The notes: generated by a model from the sequence alone, not told the origin. A stretch of 64,000 nt of DNA from an uncultured virus (IMG/VR IMGVR_UViG_3300005193_000001) (IMGVR_UViG_3300005193_000001:124001-188000); one strand, 5' to 3'. Positions 27,422-54,898 are shown, counted from the first letter of the stretch. A program made the numbers and translations.

Positions 27422-27425
27422 TATG

Positions 27426-27500
27426 AGCGGGAGAACGGATTCGAACCGCTGTCGCCAACCTTAGAAGTTGGGGTTATGGACCTTTCTAAACTACTCCCGC
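27426..27500 (-). tRNA. amber-suppressor tRNA (anticodon CUA), tRNA-Gly-like body
   Basis: Acceptor GCGGGAG/CTCCCGC + U73; anticodon arm CCAAC-TTCTAAG-GTTGG; T-loop TTCGAAT. Confidence 0.8.
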
Positions 27501-27903: not shown

Positions 27904-28215
27904 TCAAAACATATCAAACAAGCGCTTCGCGATACCTTCTGCACACTTCACGTCTTCGAGCTCCGGGTCCGTGAAAGTATAAATCCTTGACTTGATGGAA
28001 ATGGAGCTACTTTCTTGATAAACTGTAAACTCGACCTTGAAAGACGCCTTCGACCTCTCTCTCGTATCATAAACGAAAGCTTGGATTATATCTCCGCTTT
28101 CGAAGGCTTTCTCGTATGCGGCCTCAGCACTAGAGTCTTTCGGTACGCGAAAGCTAGAATATTCGTTGTTCTCCAAAACCTCAAGTGACGTGCCGCTGCT
28201 TTTATTCAAAATCAT
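27904..28215 (-). CDS. hypothetical protein
   Basis: ORF coupled to the kinase gene. Confidence 0.5.
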   Translation of the reverse strand: MILNKSSGTSLEVLENNEYSSFRVPKDSSAEAAYEKAFESGDIIQAFVYDTRERSKASFKVEFTVYQESSSISIKSRIYTFTDPELEDVKCAEGIAKRLFDMF

Positions 28216-28675
28216 CGTATCTGTTCTCCATCATTTCGTACCAATCTTCGAAGTGCATGTCATCAACTCCCAGAGGATCTTTAACCCTGCTAACGCGCTT
28301 AATCACGGGAATCAGATACTCTTGTTCAGAGTCTTTAGCGCGTTCAATGCAAACCTCGGGAGAGGTGTGGAACTCCTTGAAAACGGTCTGGAAATTCTCG
28401 TCCCTGAACAGGTTCCGCCTCTCTTCGGTCGCCATCATAGAGTCCAAAATGACGACGTCGTGATGGTCGTGAAAAAGAGCTCGGACAGCCACCCTAACAT
28501 GCTTCCAGACAAGTGGTTCTGCCTGTTTGTTGTAGTGGCTACCATGCACGGCATATCTGAACCCGTCAACCTCCACTACGGGCCAACCGTGCTCTTCCAT
28601 CATTTCATTAATCCACGTGCTCTTCCCCGCTCTCGGGAGTCCGACAGTTGCTACTAACGTATCTTCCTCAGTCAT
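28202..28675 (-). CDS. P-loop kinase (AAA_33 / polynucleotide kinase-like)
   Basis: GLPRAGKSTW Walker A, VVILDS, EVCIERA. Confidence 0.8.
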   Translation of the reverse strand: MTEEDTLVATVGLPRAGKSTWINEMMEEHGWPVVEVDGFRYAVHGSHYNKQAEPLVWKHVRVAVRALFHDHHDVVILDSMMATEERRNLFRDENFQTVFKEFHTSPEVCIERAKDSEQEYLIPVIKRVSRVKDPLGVDDMHFEDWYEMMENRYDDFE

Positions 28676-32002: not shown

Positions 32003-32023
32003 AAGAACTTTGTCTTTTATTAG

Positions 32024-32125
32024 TCGTGTGGGCGGGACTCGAACCCGCGTTTCCGTGTGATCTCGGATTTGAACCAAGCCTCACCTCGACCTATCGGTCG
32101 GTGTTACCGGACGTTTTCCACACGA
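32024..32125 (-). ncRNA. tRNA-like RNA with two T-arms (copy A)
   Basis: Acceptor CGTGTGG/CCACACG-A; hairpin CGACC-GATA-GGTCG; CTTGG-TTCAAAT-CCGAG; GCGGG-TTCGAGT-CCCGC. Confidence 0.7.
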
Positions 32126-32129
32126 TTGG

Positions 32130-32545
32130 TTGTGTTTGCTCGCCGCAAACGGCCCTTCCAGCTTGCTCTGTACCGCTGATCAGACGGTAGGGGGCGCACC
32201 TTCAAAGTCGCTCACGGTGGTAGGCCACAACGGGCCAGCCGAGTGGGGCAGAGTCGAACTGGACCTCGCAAGTGCCAGCCGTGAAGCCAAGACACTCGCC
32301 CATCCACCCGGCTATTGCTTTTTTGGTGTCGGAAGCTATTCAAGGTATCGTTCGCCCTTCATGTTCTTCCGGAGAACGCAGTGATCGCTTTCAACGCAGC
32401 ACGCCGTCACGCTTTTTATCGCAGCGTGTTTACGGAATCGAACCGTCCAGTCCCGCTTCTCGTGGGTTCAAAGTTATGCGGATTCTGACCACTCTTGGCG
32501 GAGACCTGTCCCTGCTTTCGAGCCTGTCCCTTACTCGGCCCTAGC
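32130..32545 (-). ncRNA. candidate large structured ncRNA (or cluster of ncRNAs)
   Basis: About 415 nt without an acidic ORF; T-arm ACGG-TTCGATT-CCGT at 32432-32446; closed domain AGCCGGGTGG/CCACTCGGCT with T-loop at 32237-32313. Confidence 0.55.
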
Positions 32546-33337: not shown

Positions 33338-33398
33338 CTGATCCTACGGAGTCGAACCGCTTCTCACTGCGCAAGTGAAACGGGCCAAAGACGGACCA
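33338..33398 (-). pseudogene. D-armless tRNA-like element, anticodon-loop triplet GCG
   Basis: TGGTCC/GGATCA acceptor, TTCAC-TTGCGCA-GTGAG arm, GCGG-TTCGACT-CCGT T-arm, no D-arm. Confidence 0.5.
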
Positions 33399-33402
33399 AT
33401 TG

Positions 33403-34635: not shown

Positions 34636-34729
34636 GTGGGCGATCAGAGATTCGAACTCCGTTAACCAAATTGATGGATTCGAACCATCGTTCACGGTAG
34701 CGAGCCGTGTTCCCAGGATTATCGCCCAT
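34636..34729 (-). ncRNA. tRNA-like RNA with two T-arms (copy B)
   Basis: Acceptor GGGCGAT/ATCGCCC-A; hairpin CACGG-CTCGCTA-CCGTG; GATGG-TTCGAAT-CCATC; CGGAG-TTCGAAT-CTCTG. Confidence 0.75.
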
Positions 34730-36347: not shown

Positions 36348-36357
36348 CCCTTTTGTG

Positions 36358-36460
36358 TGCTTCTGGTGGGATTTGAACCCACGGCCTCGGGGTCGAGCGC
36401 ACTCGGTCAAGGACCGATTCACGTAGTGCCCCGCGCTCTGCCGAACTGAGCTACAAAAGC
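36358..36460 (-). ncRNA. tRNA body with a 36-nt structured insert in place of the anticodon loop
   Basis: Intact acceptor, D and T arms; CGGGG/CCCCG stem encloses CACTACGTGAATCGGTCCTTGACCGAGTGCGCTCGA. Confidence 0.8.
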
Positions 36461-40264: not shown

Positions 40265-40496
40265 CAAAGGAGAAAAAGCCTGTAGCCCGGATTCTGTTAT
40301 TTCAACCTATCATCTGCCTTTACGCTCCCTACCCACCCATTATCGGTCTGCTCACCACCAAATAGGGCTGTTCGGGATTTCACCCTCTCCGGTTAAGAAC
40401 GAACCTCTCGGTTCTCCCGGATTAGAGCAGAGGTGTCCGGAGCTTCCTCACGAACGACAAAAGCCGAACGTGCGATAGGTCAGCTTCCTTCCTTTG
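40265..40496 (-). ncRNA. rnpB: shortened RNase P RNA
   Basis: P1 CAAAGGAAGGAAGC/GCTTTTTCTCCTTTG; P2 CCTATCG/TGATAGG; P4 5' GAGGAAGCTCCGGAC and 3' ACAGAATCCGGGCTA; internal AGGGTGAAA and GAGCAG elements in the expected order. Confidence 0.85.
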
Positions 40497-44921: not shown

Positions 44922-45445
44922 ACTGTAACTGGAAGTTCAACGCTTGTGTTAAATTCTGCAGCGGCTTTTACGGCACGCTGAGCCAATTTGACGGGATTAT
45001 CTTCTTTCATAGCAGCCATAGCCCCATAAGCCTCTCTCGCTCCAGTTCCGAGGGCGAAGAAGGGTTGATCAAAACGAATGACGGAAAAGTCCTTCTGAAC
45101 TTTGAATATTTTGTTCTTGACGGCCAGAAGAAACATTCCTCCTTCTTTTCTGTTGTTTTTTATCTTCGTAAAGCCCTTGCTTTCTAAAACGTGTCGGATC
45201 TTAGGAAGGAGAACGTCTATGGCGTAGAACCTTTCGCTTTCCGAATTTATATCGGGAGGACACAAATGGTGCTCCAAGATTTGACCCATCCTGAAACTCG
45301 TCGTATACCCCAAAGCCAACTCAATGCCATCGAATTTAAGAACCTTACTATTCCGAGACTTTCTCGTGTGATGGTTGCCCACACAGGCCGAGTCTCCAGC
45401 CAAAATAGCACCGGGATCCGATTCCACTCCTACAATACAGGTCAT
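44900..45445 (-). CDS. Ntn-hydrolase peptidase (HslV/proteasome-beta-like)
   Basis: N-terminal M-T-CIVG...AGDS, SKV, ALGTG...AYGAM. Confidence 0.8.
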   Translation of the reverse strand: MTCIVGVESDPGAILAGDSACVGNHHTRKSRNSKVLKFDGIELALGYTTSFRMGQILEHHLCPPDINSESERFYAIDVLLPKIRHVLESKGFTKIKNNRKEGGMFLLAVKNKIFKVQKDFSVIRFDQPFFALGTGAREAYGAMAAMKEDNPVKLAQRAVKAAAEFNTSVELPVTVCRTTSV

Positions 45446-45936
45446 CGTACGATACTTTCTATTTTTCTACAATCCTTTGCCGTTATGCCAACTGAAGGGT
45501 CCGTCTTGACGAAGTTGCTTTTGTGTCCGACTTTAGCACCGGGATTGTCGTCCACCACGACGTAATCTTCCTCCAGCCCCACGTCGGAAGCTTCTCTATG
45601 AAGCCACCGAGATATTACGGCCCCACGAGTGTCACTCTCTCCAAGCCCCCACGCCGAAATCTGTCGAGGTCCGGTAGTATCGACGACGGGACAGTTGTAC
45701 CAACCGTAGAGAGCCATAATGGAGGCCAATTTCTCCGGGCCGTGTCCCTGTCTCCAAGAACTCGACCACACGACGTGAAACCCCATCCTGTCAACTACGG
45801 TTCGAACGAGCCCAATCCTAACAGGGTCGAGCCTCCATGGACGACGGGCGGAACCGTAGCCCTCGAAGGCTCTACAAGAGTCCGAAGAATTCAGAACTCC
45901 ATCTACGTCAAGAAAAAGAAGGGGCGGTTTACTCAT
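45442..45936 (-). CDS. HAD-family phosphatase (Swiss-army-knife RNA-repair type)
   Basis: LFLDVDGVLN, VWSSSWR, RG..I..WL, YVVVDD. Confidence 0.85.
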   Translation of the reverse strand: MSKPPLLFLDVDGVLNSSDSCRAFEGYGSARRPWRLDPVRIGLVRTVVDRMGFHVVWSSSWRQGHGPEKLASIMALYGWYNCPVVDTTGPRQISAWGLGESDTRGAVISRWLHREASDVGLEEDYVVVDDNPGAKVGHKSNFVKTDPSVGITAKDCRKIESIVR

Positions 45937-46120
45937 CGTACACGTCGGTTTCGGCTTTCGTGGCTCGTCCAGACGTGGACGCGCTAAACTTGTCACTTAC
46001 GTCCGCTCTGGTTTCTCCATCTTCGAGCACAACGAACTGGTGAGGCTCGTAACTGGAGGGTTGCATGATGATGAAGTCCGCTCCGGGAGGAACGTCTTCG
46101 AAATCGATGTACAAATCCAT
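45929..46120 (-). CDS. hypothetical protein
   Basis: 63-aa ORF coupled to the HAD gene. Confidence 0.45.
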   Translation of the reverse strand: MDLYIDFEDVPPGADFIIMQPSSYEPHQFVVLEDGETRADVSDKFSASTSGRATKAETDVYDE

Positions 46121-51936: not shown

Positions 51937-52014
51937 CGAGTGGCACGGGATTCGAACCCGTAGGCCCCAGCTAAGGGTTTACCATATGGGGCGGGCCAGT
52001 GCCCCGTCCCACTC
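51937..52014 (-). ncRNA. tRNA-like RNA with expanded anticodon region
   Basis: GAGTGG/CCACTC acceptor, ACGGG-TTCGAAT-CCCGT T-arm, GCCCCA/TGGGGC stem enclosing 17 nt. Confidence 0.6.
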
Positions 52015-52784: not shown

Positions 52785-52835
52785 TGGTGGAGCAGTCGGA
52801 TTCGAACCGACGATTACTGACCAACAGTTACTCCA
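52785..52835 (-). ncRNA. 51-nt tRNA minihelix-like element ending in CCA
   Basis: TGGAGTA/TGCTCCA-CCA, single hairpin ACTG-TTGGT-CAGT, T-arm GTCGG-TTCGAAT-CCGAC. Confidence 0.6.
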
Positions 52836-53580
52836 ACAAGTTTTCTATTTCGTAATTTTTCGCCCACCTTATATTTCCAGTATTTGTTTTCGGGTCTTCT
52901 ACTCTAAGGTGTATCCCTCTTTTTGGAGCATCGCTAAACTCAACTCCATAAACCTTATTTGTCTCTGAACAGTATATGGCAAACAAGTCTATGTCATCTT
53001 TATGATAAGACCCGCTTTTATTTATATTTTTATTGTACGAGTTTCCACTTCTTTCTAACTTTGCTACTATGCAACCATTTTTATAGTTTCCATTTTTTAC
53101 TTGCAGTTTCAAAAACCCATTCGAACTTTCAATCAAAAGGTCTTCTGCCGACCTCACTACTGGTTCATATATTTTATATCCTAATTCTACCAGTTTGGTT
53201 CTAACTTTCTCTTCCGCCAGAATTCCCTTATGTCGTTTTGAACCTAAAAACTCTTTTTTTGTTTTTGCTTTTCTCGGCTCTTTCGGTTCTTTTTTCAACT
53301 GGTCTTTTGTTTCTTTAGTCGTATATTTTACAACTGTCGTTTTAGATACACCTAAATTTTCCGCAACTGCGCTTACTGTCTCCCCACTTTTTCGAAGAGA
53401 GTTTATTTTCCGTTCTTTTTCTTTGCTTATCTTTTGTTGCTTTTTTCCAGTATCTTCAAGCCCCGCTTGCTTACAGTGGTAAGCTACCGTGCCTTTCGAG
53501 CAGTCAAGCTCATTTTCAATTTCACGATAGCTTTTACCCTCTTTTCGAAGTCGGATTATATCTTGCTTATACTTGCTCAT
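52828..53580 (-). mobile_element. free-standing homing-endonuclease-like gene: two HTH domains + PD-(D/E)XK nuclease (I-Ssp6803I-like)
   Basis: G.SYREI...L.CSKGTV HTH; KGILAE...DLLI...KLQVK...Y...DIDLFAIY; Lys-rich and visibly AT-richer than its flanks. Confidence 0.8.
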
Positions 53581-54805: not shown

Positions 54806-54898
54806 GAAGCCCGAGTATGGCGGTATCTCAAGAACGCCTCGGCAACCGCTGGTGCAGATACGTCATTAGCTCCCGCCTATCCTGCAAATTCGGGCTTT
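54806..54898 (-). ncRNA. candidate three-way-junction ncRNA
   Basis: AAAGCCCGAAT/ACTCGGGCTTC closing stem; TGCAG/CTGCA and GCGGT/ACCGC arms; directly 3' of tRNA-Ile. Confidence 0.5.

What the first reader, a model, noticed from the sequence alone, without database searches (positions are those of the whole stretch)
34636..34729. Double-T-arm tRNA-like RNA (copy B)
Seen: 7-bp acceptor + A73, an 11-nt linker in place of a D-arm, a 5-bp/7-nt anticodon-like hairpin (loop CTCGCTA), a perfect T-arm, an 11-nt linker, then a second T-arm closing onto the acceptor. The element at 32024 has the same order of modules with a different sequence. Inference: an RNA class I do not recognise, possibly forming interdigitated T-loops of the kind used by RNase P, T-boxes and the L1 stalk to bind tRNA elbows.
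Basis: partly seen in the sequence, partly recalled or inferred. Interest (0 to 1): 0.82.

Follow-up and report, generated by a model that had tools for sequence, protein, structure and literature searches.

The report
Phage tRNA look-alike with two T-arms
A 263-kb phage carries, among its 47 tRNA genes, two genes for tRNA-shaped RNAs that have a second T-arm, no D-stem and no usable anticodon; similar RNAs turn up in a few other large phages, and what they do is untested.

Summary
Copy B (window 34637-34727, minus strand, 91 nt) has a 7-bp acceptor stem, an 11-nt linker, a 5-bp/7-nt hairpin, a consensus T-arm (T1), a second 11-nt linker, a second T-arm (T2) stacked on the acceptor, then A73. 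Copy A (32024-32124, 101 nt) has the same module order.

Neither copy is called by ARAGORN or matches any Rfam family. Neither resembles any tRNA of this genome beyond the T-loop, so a recent recombination scar is unlikely.

No diverged orthologue was found, only the same phage at 99.8% identity. A covariance model built from B and two look-alikes scored copy A (31.2 bits) above every ordinary tRNA of the window (23.3 at most). It also found three new double-T elements in other large-phage records, mostly inside tRNA arrays.

Across nine aligned elements 94% of pair cells are paired. Both linkers usually carry a D-loop-like GG. The 3' trailers of five of six elements follow the convention of the neighbouring tRNA genes (C74 here).

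Best reading: a non-decoding tRNA mimic, processed like a tRNA and showing two T-loop/GG modules. Its role is inferred only. The interdigitated-T-loop idea could not be tested. Earlier notes of this scan describe similar RNAs on other DNA.

The parts
34721..34727 (-). Copy B acceptor 5' strand (7 nt)
   Evidence: Pairs 7/7 Watson-Crick with 34638-34644. Pair probability is 0.83-1.0.
34710..34720 (-). Copy B linker 1 (11 nt), with a D-loop-like UGGGAA and no D-stem
   Evidence: Sequence. A GG-N0-2-A motif is expected in 0.27 of 11-mers of this genome. A YGG aligns here in 9 of 9 double-T elements.
34693..34709 (-). Copy B hairpin hp1 (5 bp, 7-nt loop CUCGCUA)
   Evidence: The loop has U33-like U, but U where an anticodon loop needs purine 37. 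The hairpin varies or is absent in look-alikes.
34673..34689 (-). Copy B T1: extra T-arm (5 bp, loop UUCGAAU, GG/CC flanks)
   Evidence: Found by the T-arm scan as an orphan not inside any tRNA call. It is identical to T1 of L060.
34662..34672 (-). Copy B linker 2 (11 nt), with UGGUUAA
   Evidence: A GG followed by an A/U-rich stretch aligns here in 8 of 9 elements.
34645..34661 (-). Copy B T2: the T-arm that stacks on the acceptor (5 bp incl. one G-U, loop UUCGAAU)
34636..34644 (-). Copy B acceptor 3' strand (34638-34644), A73 (34637) and C74 (34636)
   Evidence: C74 follows the discriminator in 42 of 47 ordinary tRNA genes of this genome, and none encodes CCA.
32023..32124 (-). Copy A. Acceptor 32118-32124 with 32025-32031; linker 1 32101-32117; hp1 32087-32100 (5 bp, loop GAUA); spacer 32079-32086; T1 32062-32078; linker 2 32049-32061; T2 32032-32048; A73 32024; C74 32023
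   Evidence: It scored 31.2 bits with model R2, which was built without it. The best ordinary tRNA of the window scored 23.3 bits.

Best explanation
Copies A and B are genes for small non-decoding tRNA mimics. They are transcribed with the phage's tRNA array. Their canonical part, the 7-bp acceptor stacked on T2 followed by N73-C74, is what tRNA-processing enzymes recognise. They are therefore most likely cut out and 3'-finished like the neighbouring tRNAs, by RNase P at the 5' end and by 3' trimming plus CCA addition (inferred).

They cannot read codons. There is no D-stem. The hairpin at the anticodon position has U at position 37 (B) or a 4-nt loop (A).

Instead they carry a second true T-arm (T1), and each T-arm is preceded by a single-stranded segment with a D-loop-like GG. 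The mature RNA would therefore present the acceptor end plus two T-loop/GG ('elbow') modules (inferred from sequence; not modelled in 3D).

I think the most likely role is a trans-acting mimic or decoy for proteins or RNAs that read the acceptor/T-arm/elbow of tRNAs, for example host tRNA-targeting defence enzymes or tRNA-handling factors. That last step is a guess.
For: Shown:
- The module anatomy and intact helices.
- Location on the tRNA strand inside the array.
- No tRNA call and no Rfam family.
- A73-C74 in both copies, against C74 in 42 of 47 real tRNA genes.
- The look-alikes follow their own genome's trailer habit in five of six cases. C74 is used in G000, G027 and LR756508.1. Encoded CCA is used in G002, where all 3 neighbouring tRNAs have it. 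L060 also encodes CCA, although only 1 of 11 neighbouring real tRNA calls does.
- Model R2, built from B, L023 and L060, scored A at 31.2 bits against 23.3 or less for the window's ordinary tRNAs.
- In 50 other viral records R2 found three double-T elements that the first pattern could not have selected. They are G027:101736-101822 (42.3 bits), LR756508.1:482032-482114 (32.4) and G003:1826-1900 (34.8).
- In the nine-sequence alignment 94.4% of 180 cells pair and 19 of 22 pairs change on both sides. No shuffle of 500 reached this.
- T1 loops of the three model-found members are UUCGAAU, UUCGAUU and UUCGAGU. They vary at T-loop positions 59-60, not at the would-be anticodon.
- A GG motif occurs in all 4 linkers of A and B, with background 0.27-0.41 each. 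It occurs in 9/9 and 8/9 aligned linkers.

Context for a conflict role:
- A full tRNA set with a CUA-anticodon tRNA.
- A HAD domain of the 'Swiss Army Knife' RNA-repair proteins and an AAA_33 kinase-like protein.
- Other tRNA mimics in the same island.
Against: - No expression data: no RNA run holds the phage.
- No diverged orthologue of A or B was found, so conservation of these two genes is untested. The only other copy is 99.76% identical, and its 3 differences lie in the next ORF.
- The class is rare and heterogeneous. hp1 is optional and the linkers differ. A has two extra predicted helices (UCCG/CGGA and GUGA/UCAC) that use up both GG segments.
- The alignment used for pair counts was fitted to the model. 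Five of its nine rows had been picked by me for having these helices.
- R2 scores near 25 bits are also reached by ordinary tRNAs. One example is the tRNA(CUA) in L146 at 25.6 bits.
- Nothing shows a binding partner.
Confidence: 0.4

Rival explanations
1. The element is a cis-acting processing signal. The acceptor/T2 minihelix serves only as a cutting mark for tRNA-processing enzymes, like the t-elements of plant mitochondria. It would free or stabilise the mRNA of the small ORF that follows, and the excised RNA would have no job of its own.
For: A ends 21 nt before the ATG of a 68-codon ORF (32002-31796). B ends 51 nt before the ATG of a 114-codon ORF (34585-34241). Throughout the island, tRNAs and small same-strand ORFs alternate. 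The promoter-like and terminator-like counts are no higher than in shuffles: 4 against 4.4, and 2 against 5.5. Only the acceptor, T2 and C74 part is canonical.
Against: This role does not explain why T1, hp1 and the GG linkers are kept intact and recur in other phages with compensatory changes. Ordinary tRNAs nearby could do the same job. The two downstream ORFs are unrelated.
Confidence: 0.25
2. The element is a non-functional relic. A tRNA gene would have suffered a duplication or illegitimate recombination of its 3' half and is decaying.
For: A fresh case exists. L116 carries an exact tandem repeat of about 30 nt covering the variable loop and T-arm. In copy A the 7 nt after T1 can pair 6/7 with the 5' acceptor strand, as expected of a duplicated 3' half. 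Distribution is sporadic and no orthologues were found. In the pattern scan 53 of 111 distinct hits were ordinary tRNAs followed by a stray T-arm hairpin.
Against: All 22 module pairs in each copy are intact. T1 and T2 stems differ completely. The best non-self match in the genome is 15 nt of T-loop. Local similarity of the 5' parts to the 47 tRNAs equals shuffled controls: 124 of 300 and 152 of 300 shuffles reach the observed score. C74 is kept. The architecture recurs with 19 of 22 pairs changed on both sides.
Confidence: 0.15
3. One reading: T1 and T2 interdigitate as in RNase P, T-box stem I and the L1 stalk, and the RNA docks on the elbows of other tRNAs.
For: There are two consensus T-loops 21-23 nt apart. 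The same window also holds an RNase P RNA-like gene and an L1-stalk look-alike. So elbow-related RNAs do cluster here.
Against: No tool here can test tertiary structure. The known interdigitated modules (recalled, Lehmann et al. 2013) are compact pentanucleotide T-loops in one small domain, not two full 17-nt T-arms on flexible linkers. T2 is committed to stacking on the acceptor. Both linkers carry GG, which would fill the T-loops as the D-loop does in tRNA. No Rfam family with that motif matches the element.
Confidence: 0.08
4. It is a decoding class II tRNA. T1 would be the anticodon arm (CGA, Ser in B; CAA, Leu in A) and linker 2 a long variable region.
For: T1 loops read U33-CGA-A37 and U33-CAA-A37. 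Ser and Leu are both long-variable-arm tRNAs. A true tRNA-Ser(CGA) of this genome has an anticodon loop that passes the T-arm scan. ARAGORN calls L060 'tRNA-Ser(cga)'.
Against: There are 31 nt (B) and 39 nt (A) between acceptor and T1, instead of about 20, and no D-stem. T1 is the exact T-arm consensus with GG/CC flanks. In L136 the same position has U at 37. Loop variation falls at T-loop positions 59-60. Linker 2 has no stem. The genome already has ordinary tRNA-Ser(CGA) and tRNA-Leu(CAA). The Rfam tRNA model gives no hit even at E<=10.
Confidence: 0.04

Closest known systems
Phage T4 RNA C (species 1, 139 nt) and RNA D (species 2, 119 nt)
   Same: These are small RNAs encoded on the tRNA strand inside a phage tRNA cluster (annotation). 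RNA C ends in a consensus T-arm closed by a 7-pair acceptor-like stem. Their roles are still unknown (PMC3014915; I read the passage only).
   Different: RNA C has one T-arm, not two, and RNA D has none by my scan. R2 scores RNA C 20.6 bits with the T1 block deleted. There is no sequence similarity.
Ordinary tRNA (Rfam RF00005)
   Same: It shares the 7-bp acceptor, the T-arm, a discriminator followed by C74 as in this phage's tRNAs, a D-loop-like GG, and position in the tRNA array.
   Different: There is no D-stem, no valid anticodon loop and an extra T-arm. There is no RF00005 hit and no ARAGORN call.
Unannotated twin-T-arm tRNA-like element of Escherichia phage G7C (NC_015933, about 34.80-34.93 kb)
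   Same: It lies in a non-coding stretch with two T-arm hairpins between acceptor-like strands and a GG linker after the 5' strand.
   Different: The module order differs, with hairpins between T1 and T2. The acceptor pairs only 5 of 7. There is no tRNA array in the 50 kb read (0 ARAGORN calls). R2 scores it only 14.6 bits.
Interdigitated double T-loop modules of RNase P, T-box stem I and the L1 stalk (recalled: Lehmann, Jossinet and Gautheret 2013)
   Same: There are two T-loop motifs in one RNA.
   Different: Those are compact elbow receptors. Here the T-loops sit in full T-arms, one of which is part of an acceptor/T minihelix. The arrangement was not testable.
tRNA-like processing signals (plant mitochondrial t-elements) and D-arm-less mitochondrial tRNAs
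   Same: In both, acceptor/T-arm mimicry is enough for RNase P/Z, and a connector replaces the D-arm.
   Different: Neither has a second T-arm. D-arm-less mitochondrial tRNAs still decode.

Membership tests
tRNA (RF00005) | 7-bp acceptor stem with discriminator, and a T-arm of 5 bp with loop UUCRANY | tested here: met
tRNA (RF00005) | D-arm with a 3-4-bp stem | tested here: not met
   There is an 11-nt (B) or 17-nt (A) single-stranded linker, and no stem in any fold.
tRNA (RF00005) | Anticodon arm with a 7-nt loop, U33 and purine 37 | tested here: not met
   B has loop CUCGCUA with U at 37. A has the 4-nt loop GAUA.
tRNA (RF00005) | Score at or above the Rfam gathering score (29 bits), or an ARAGORN call | tested here: not met
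   There was no RF00005 hit at E<=1 over 38 kb or at E<=10 over 2.9 kb. ARAGORN made no call in standard or intron mode.
Double-T-arm tRNA-like RNAs of large phages (class proposed here; models R1/R2) | An acceptor stem enclosing two T-arms, the 3' one abutting the acceptor | tested here: met
   B and A meet it. Further examples are L023, L060, L087, L003 and L004, and G027:101736, LR756508.1:482032 and G003:1826.
Double-T-arm tRNA-like RNAs of large phages (class proposed here; models R1/R2) | Helices kept by compensatory change across members | tested here: met
   In alignment A5 94.4% of 180 cells pair, 19 of 22 pairs change on both sides, and 0 of 500 shuffles reach this. Caveats: the alignment was fitted to the model, and five rows were pre-selected.
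Double-T-arm tRNA-like RNAs of large phages (class proposed here; models R1/R2) | Common descent of the members (true homology) | tested here: inconclusive
   Only L023, L060 and L136 share linker and loop motifs. A and B share nothing beyond the T-loops. BLAST finds nothing.
T4 RNA C / RNA D type stable RNAs | Encoded in a phage tRNA cluster, with a tRNA-like 3' domain | tested here: met
T4 RNA C / RNA D type stable RNAs | Sequence or model similarity to RNA C or RNA D | tested here: not met
   R2 gives 20.6 bits on RNA C with T1 deleted, and no hit on RNA D.
Interdigitated T-loop elbow receptors (RNase P, T-box, L1 stalk) | Two T-loops that intercalate into each other and form a flat tRNA-elbow docking surface | not testable with these tools
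   No RNA 3D prediction is available. Only the presence of two T-loop sequences is shown.
tRNA-like processing signals (t-elements) | Cleavage by RNase P or RNase Z at the element's ends | not testable with these tools
   Only the position 21 and 51 nt upstream of ORF starts, and the C74 signature, are shown.

The most novel reading that the evidence does not exclude
The RNA is a purpose-built two-elbow tRNA mimic. Each T-loop would be capped by its own GG linker, so one molecule shows an acceptor end and two tRNA elbows. It would act as a bivalent decoy or competitor for elbow-reading machines, such as the specificity domain of host RNase P, the L1 stalk/E site, or tRNA-directed defence nucleases. 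It would belong to a phage 'tRNA-elbow toolkit' together with the RNase P RNA-like gene lacking the specificity domain (40267-40491) and the L1-stalk look-alike (54807-54897) in the same island.
Probability: 0.12. Interest if true: 0.85.

Novelty: new variant of a known kind. Interest (0 to 1): 0.6.

Why it matters
Phage tRNA clusters have been known for fifty years to hold tRNA-like RNAs of unknown function, such as T4 RNA C and D. This finding adds a definable architecture: acceptor, GG linker, T-arm, GG linker, T-arm. It recurs in several large uncultured phages and is in no RNA catalogue.

If these RNAs are decoys for tRNA-reading host factors or defence nucleases, they would be an RNA-based counter-defence. 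If they are only processing marks, they show how little of a tRNA the processing enzymes need.

Either way, tRNA finders miss them. Phage 'tRNA islands' therefore contain more genes than the annotation shows.

Tried and rejected
- **BLAST against cultured phages.** BLAST of B and A against 50,697 phage records gave 69 and 70 records. None covered more than 30% of the query, and all matches were T-arm pieces. A 5-kb query found only tRNA matches, plus one 234-nt ORF match to LR756508.1.
- **Exact pattern of T1-linker-T2 in viral contigs.** 0 hits.
- **Loop-anchored pattern in metagenome contigs.** 1 hit, the same phage at 99.76% identity.
- **Neighbouring proteins as anchors.** The 114-aa ORF gave one 30%-identical relative with no tRNAs nearby. 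The deaminase gave none.
- **Sequencing runs.** No RNA holder was listed. The laid contigs showed no variant in A or B.
- **ARAGORN variants.** At lowered thresholds or in mitochondrial mode it gave only implausible calls.
- **Donor tRNA search.** Nothing beyond T-loops, and similarity equal to shuffles.
- **Subfamily pattern from L023 and L060.** It returned only those two.
- **Model R1 on five look-alike records.** It found only L060 itself.
- **MAFFT alignment of eight elements.** It was structurally inconsistent and I did not use it.
- **Literature.** Four searches were answered. Terms included 'tRNA-like', 'two T-arms', 'phage', 'rnaC', 'rnaD', 'decoy', 'anticodon nuclease', 'noncanonical tRNA', 'huge phages' and 'T-loop'. 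No listed title or abstract describes double-T-arm phage RNAs. Passages read in PMC10690425, PMC11662646 and PMC13056530 were not relevant.
- **T1 as anticodon arm, and B as a derivative of tRNA-Ala(CGC).** I considered both and set them aside (see the rivals). For tRNA-Ala the pair at 3:70 is G-C, not G-U, and position 37 is U.

Full report
**Setting.** The window is bases 124001-188000 of a 263,015-bp virus record (48.7% G+C, CheckV completeness 100). ARAGORN finds 47 tRNA genes, all on the minus strand, 34 of them in the window. Protein hits include baseplate gp25, a UvrD-like helicase, dUTPase, peptide deformylase, Cpn10, a PD-(D/E)XK endonuclease with HTH domains, and a HAD domain of the 'Swiss Army Knife' RNA-repair proteins. 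It is a large tailed phage. The only sequencing runs that hold most of its sampled words are brine metagenomes.

**The observation.** On the minus strand copy B reads exactly as described. It has a 7-bp Watson-Crick acceptor, an 11-nt linker, and a 5-bp hairpin with loop CUCGCUA. A 3-nt spacer and a consensus T-arm (T1) follow. Then come an 11-nt linker and a second T-arm (T2) abutting the acceptor 3' strand, then A73. The precise span is 34637-34727. Copy A (32024-32124) has the same order, but with a 4-nt hairpin loop and longer linkers.

A scan of the whole genome for two T-arm-like hairpins 17-60 nt apart gives four rows. They are A, B, a real tRNA-Ser(CGA) whose anticodon loop looks like a T-loop, and one weak pair.

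Free-energy z-scores are unimpressive: B -1.26, A -2.88. For B the modular fold is 0.4 kcal/mol above a fold that cross-pairs the palindromic UUCGAA loops. For A every module pair has probability 0.92 or more, and the minimum-energy fold adds two helices inside the molecule.

**What it is not.**
- ARAGORN does not call either copy, with or without introns.
- Rfam gives no match at E<=1 over 38 kb, nor at E<=10 over 2.9 kb. The one exception is a 16-bit match of A's T2 to the tmRNA T-arm.
- The elements are not a fresh fusion of this genome's tRNA pieces. The longest non-self match is 15 nt of T-loop. The similarity of their 5' parts to the 47 tRNAs is what shuffled queries give (124 of 300 and 152 of 300 shuffles reach it).
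- T1 and T2 have unrelated stems.
- T1 is not an anticodon arm. It is the exact bacterial T-arm consensus with GG/CC flanks. It sits 31 or 39 nt from the acceptor, instead of about 20. In look-alikes found without constraining that loop, the variation falls at T-loop positions 59-60 (UUCGAAU, UUCGAUU, UUCGAGU), including a U at the would-be position 37.

**tRNA-like ends.** In this genome 42 of 47 tRNA genes have C directly after the discriminator, and none encodes CCA. A and B both have A73-C74.

The same match to local habit holds elsewhere.
- The element in G027 ends A|CUAA, like 3 of 4 neighbouring tRNAs.
- The element in LR756508.1 ends A|C, as do all 11 tRNAs I looked at there.
- The element in G002 encodes A|CCA, as do its 3 neighbouring tRNAs.
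- L060 also encodes CCA, although only 1 of 11 real tRNA calls near it does.

I take this as the best evidence that the 3' ends are handled like tRNA ends. The processing itself is inferred.

**Relatives.** I found no diverged orthologue.
- BLAST against cultured phages finds only T-arm fragments.
- An exact T1-to-T2 pattern finds nothing in IMG/VR.
- A loop-anchored pattern in metagenomes finds only the same phage. It is 99.76% identical over 1,240 nt, and the 3 differences all lie in the next ORF.
- Read-laying showed no variants.

Of 111 distinct hits, 53 were ordinary tRNAs followed by a stray T-arm hairpin, 4 were tRNAs whose anticodon loop mimics a T-loop, and 54 had no tRNA call. Among 37 of the last group with both arms at least 4/5 paired, 6 had a 7/7 acceptor closure, against 12 of 481 decoy 3' strands.

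L060 and L023 match B module for module. They also share a GACG hairpin loop and a GNGGGAUA second linker with each other. L060 lies inside a same-strand tRNA array.

**Models.** A single-sequence model of B (R1) scored L060 at 32.3 bits, but ordinary tRNAs reached 25.

A model from B, L023 and L060 (R2) scored copy A at 31.2 bits, although A was not used to build it. The best ordinary tRNA of the window scored 23.3.

I ran R2 over 50 viral records. The 49 IMG/VR records were chosen by me from the 119 pattern loci plus one protein-search locus, favouring the larger contigs; the fiftieth was LR756508.1. R2 gave 41 places at E<=0.001 in 26 records. I inspected seven of them.
- Three are new double-T elements at sites the first pattern could not have picked. 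They are G027:101736-101822 (42.3 bits, in a tRNA array, first linker nearly identical to L023's), LR756508.1:482032-482114 (32.4 bits, about 620 nt downstream of the nearer of two same-strand tRNAs) and G003:1826-1900 (34.8 bits, a second copy in L060's genome).
- One is L087's own site.
- One is an ordinary tRNA(CUA) at 25.6 bits.
- Two are partial or ambiguous.
- I did not inspect the other 34 places. Three of them are the pattern sites of L023, L060 and L003 and one is L004's. The other 30 are 63-108 nt long at 20.6-28.4 bits; most are of ordinary tRNA length, and many are probably ordinary tRNAs.

In the nine-row model-fitted alignment 94.4% of 180 cells pair and 19 of 22 pairs change on both sides. 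No shuffle of 500 reached these values, and sliding the partners drops pairing to 38-48%. The alignment is fitted to the structure, and five rows were pre-selected for these helices. The count therefore shows a shared architecture, not proven common descent.

**The linkers.** All four linkers of A and B contain GG followed within two bases by A. The background is 0.27-0.41 for windows of these lengths. In the alignment a YGG falls in the first linker of 9 of 9 rows, and a GG followed by A/U-rich sequence in the second linker of 8 of 9.

This resembles the G18-G19-N-A21 core of tRNA D-loops (established tRNA knowledge). My inference is that each T-loop has its own D-loop-like partner, giving two 'elbows'.

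There is a caveat for A. Its lowest-energy fold pairs the two GG segments with each other.

The hairpin at the anticodon position is variable or absent. It is therefore not a defining feature.

**Function.** Nothing here measures function. The canonical part (acceptor, T2, C74) argues for excision by the tRNA-processing machinery. The extra, conserved-in-shape part (T1, GG linkers) argues that the excised RNA matters. This is why I rank a trans-acting mimic or decoy (0.4) above a pure processing mark (0.25) and a relic (0.15). The interdigitated-T-loop, tRNA-binding idea stays possible (0.08) but untested.

**Known things.** The nearest described case is T4 RNA C and RNA D. They lie in the T4 tRNA cluster, and RNA C ends in a T-arm closed by a 7-pair stem. 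Their roles are unknown (PMC3014915, passage read). They lack the second T-arm.

Earlier notes of this scan describe double-T-arm or two-elbow tRNA-like RNAs in other phage genomes, so the scan has met this kind of thing before on other DNA. I checked two of their leads. T4 RNA C has a single T-arm. Phage G7C does hold an unannotated twin-T-arm element near 34.8-34.93 kb, though its order of modules differs and R2 scores it only 14.6 bits.

My four answered literature searches listed no paper on such RNAs.

Noticed in passing
window 40267-40491 (-): An RNase P RNA-like gene of only 225 nt. Rfam RF00010 scores it 63.2 bits (below the gathering score of 100), E 4e-17, aligned end to end. The P4 and J18/2 core sequences are kept, but most of the specificity domain (about 140 model positions) is replaced by about 44 nt. 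A phage-encoded minimal RNase P RNA would be notable in its own right.
   Followed up: partly
window 54807-54897 (-): A 91-nt look-alike of the 23S rRNA L1 stalk. It matches Rfam LSU model positions 2125-2216 at 45.4 and 39.2 bits, E about 1e-10. It lies directly upstream of, and overlaps by 25 nt, the start of a 128-codon ORF (54831-54445). It may be an L1-binding leader or decoy.
   Followed up: partly
window 36357-36460 (-): A 103-104-nt tRNA missed by standard ARAGORN. Rfam tRNA scores it 55.7 bits. ARAGORN in intron mode calls tRNA-Glu(CUC) with a 29-nt insert just 5' of the anticodon, which folds as an extension of the anticodon arm.
   Followed up: partly
window 52785-52835 (-): A 48-nt mini tRNA-like element. 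It has a 7-pair acceptor, a small hairpin with a UUGGU loop and a consensus T-arm, followed by an encoded CCA. Rfam gives a weak tmRNA hit (16 bits). It lies just downstream of, and overlaps by 8 nt, the 3' end of the endonuclease ORF 52828-53580.
   Followed up: partly
window 33338-33399 (-), 51937-52014 (-), about 32238-32312 (-), and T-arms at 32431, 44270 and 48048: More tRNA-like oddities lie in the same island. One is a 62-nt D-arm-less element 3 nt after tRNA-Met. One is a 77-nt element with a UUAGCU-loop hairpin before its T-arm and G73-C74. One is an element with a 9-pair closing stem. Three longer structured stretches end in T-arms.
   Followed up: partly
whole genome (G000), tRNA 3' trailers: 42 of 47 tRNA genes have C at position 74, mostly followed by U, and none encodes CCA. 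The same habit is seen in LR756508.1, G001 and G027. This suggests a shared 3'-processing rule in these large phages.
   Followed up: partly
window 27425-27500 (-): This is a tRNA with anticodon CUA, an amber-suppressor type that ARAGORN labels 'Pyl'. TAG still ends 28 of 158 long minus-strand ORFs, so wholesale recoding is not evident. LR756508.1 has a similar tRNA.
   Followed up: partly
viral loci L010, L015, L022, L055, L056, L069, L074, L076, L078: A conserved module follows different tRNAs (three with ARAGORN calls: Met, Leu and a doubtful Ser; six without). It consists of 4 nt, a T-arm hairpin (UGCAG or UGUGG stem) and a conserved tail of about 30 nt. It matches unannotated DNA of Cellulophaga phages phi19:3 and phi13:2 at 89.6% identity. 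In L022 the tail can pair with the tRNA's D-loop.
   Followed up: partly
L123 (LR756508.1) and L120 (G001): Repeated orphan T-arms (AUGGG UUCGAGU CCCAU) are preceded by a recurring CUGC-N-ACAGCA hairpin motif upstream of tRNAs. G001 has three T-arms in a row behind a tRNA-Gln.
   Followed up: no
window 45442-45996 (-), 28202-28675 (-), 52828-53580 (-): A HAD domain of the 'Swiss Army Knife' RNA-repair proteins (E 2.8e-23), an AAA_33 kinase-like protein and a PD-(D/E)XK plus HTH endonuclease lie within or beside the tRNA island.
   Followed up: no
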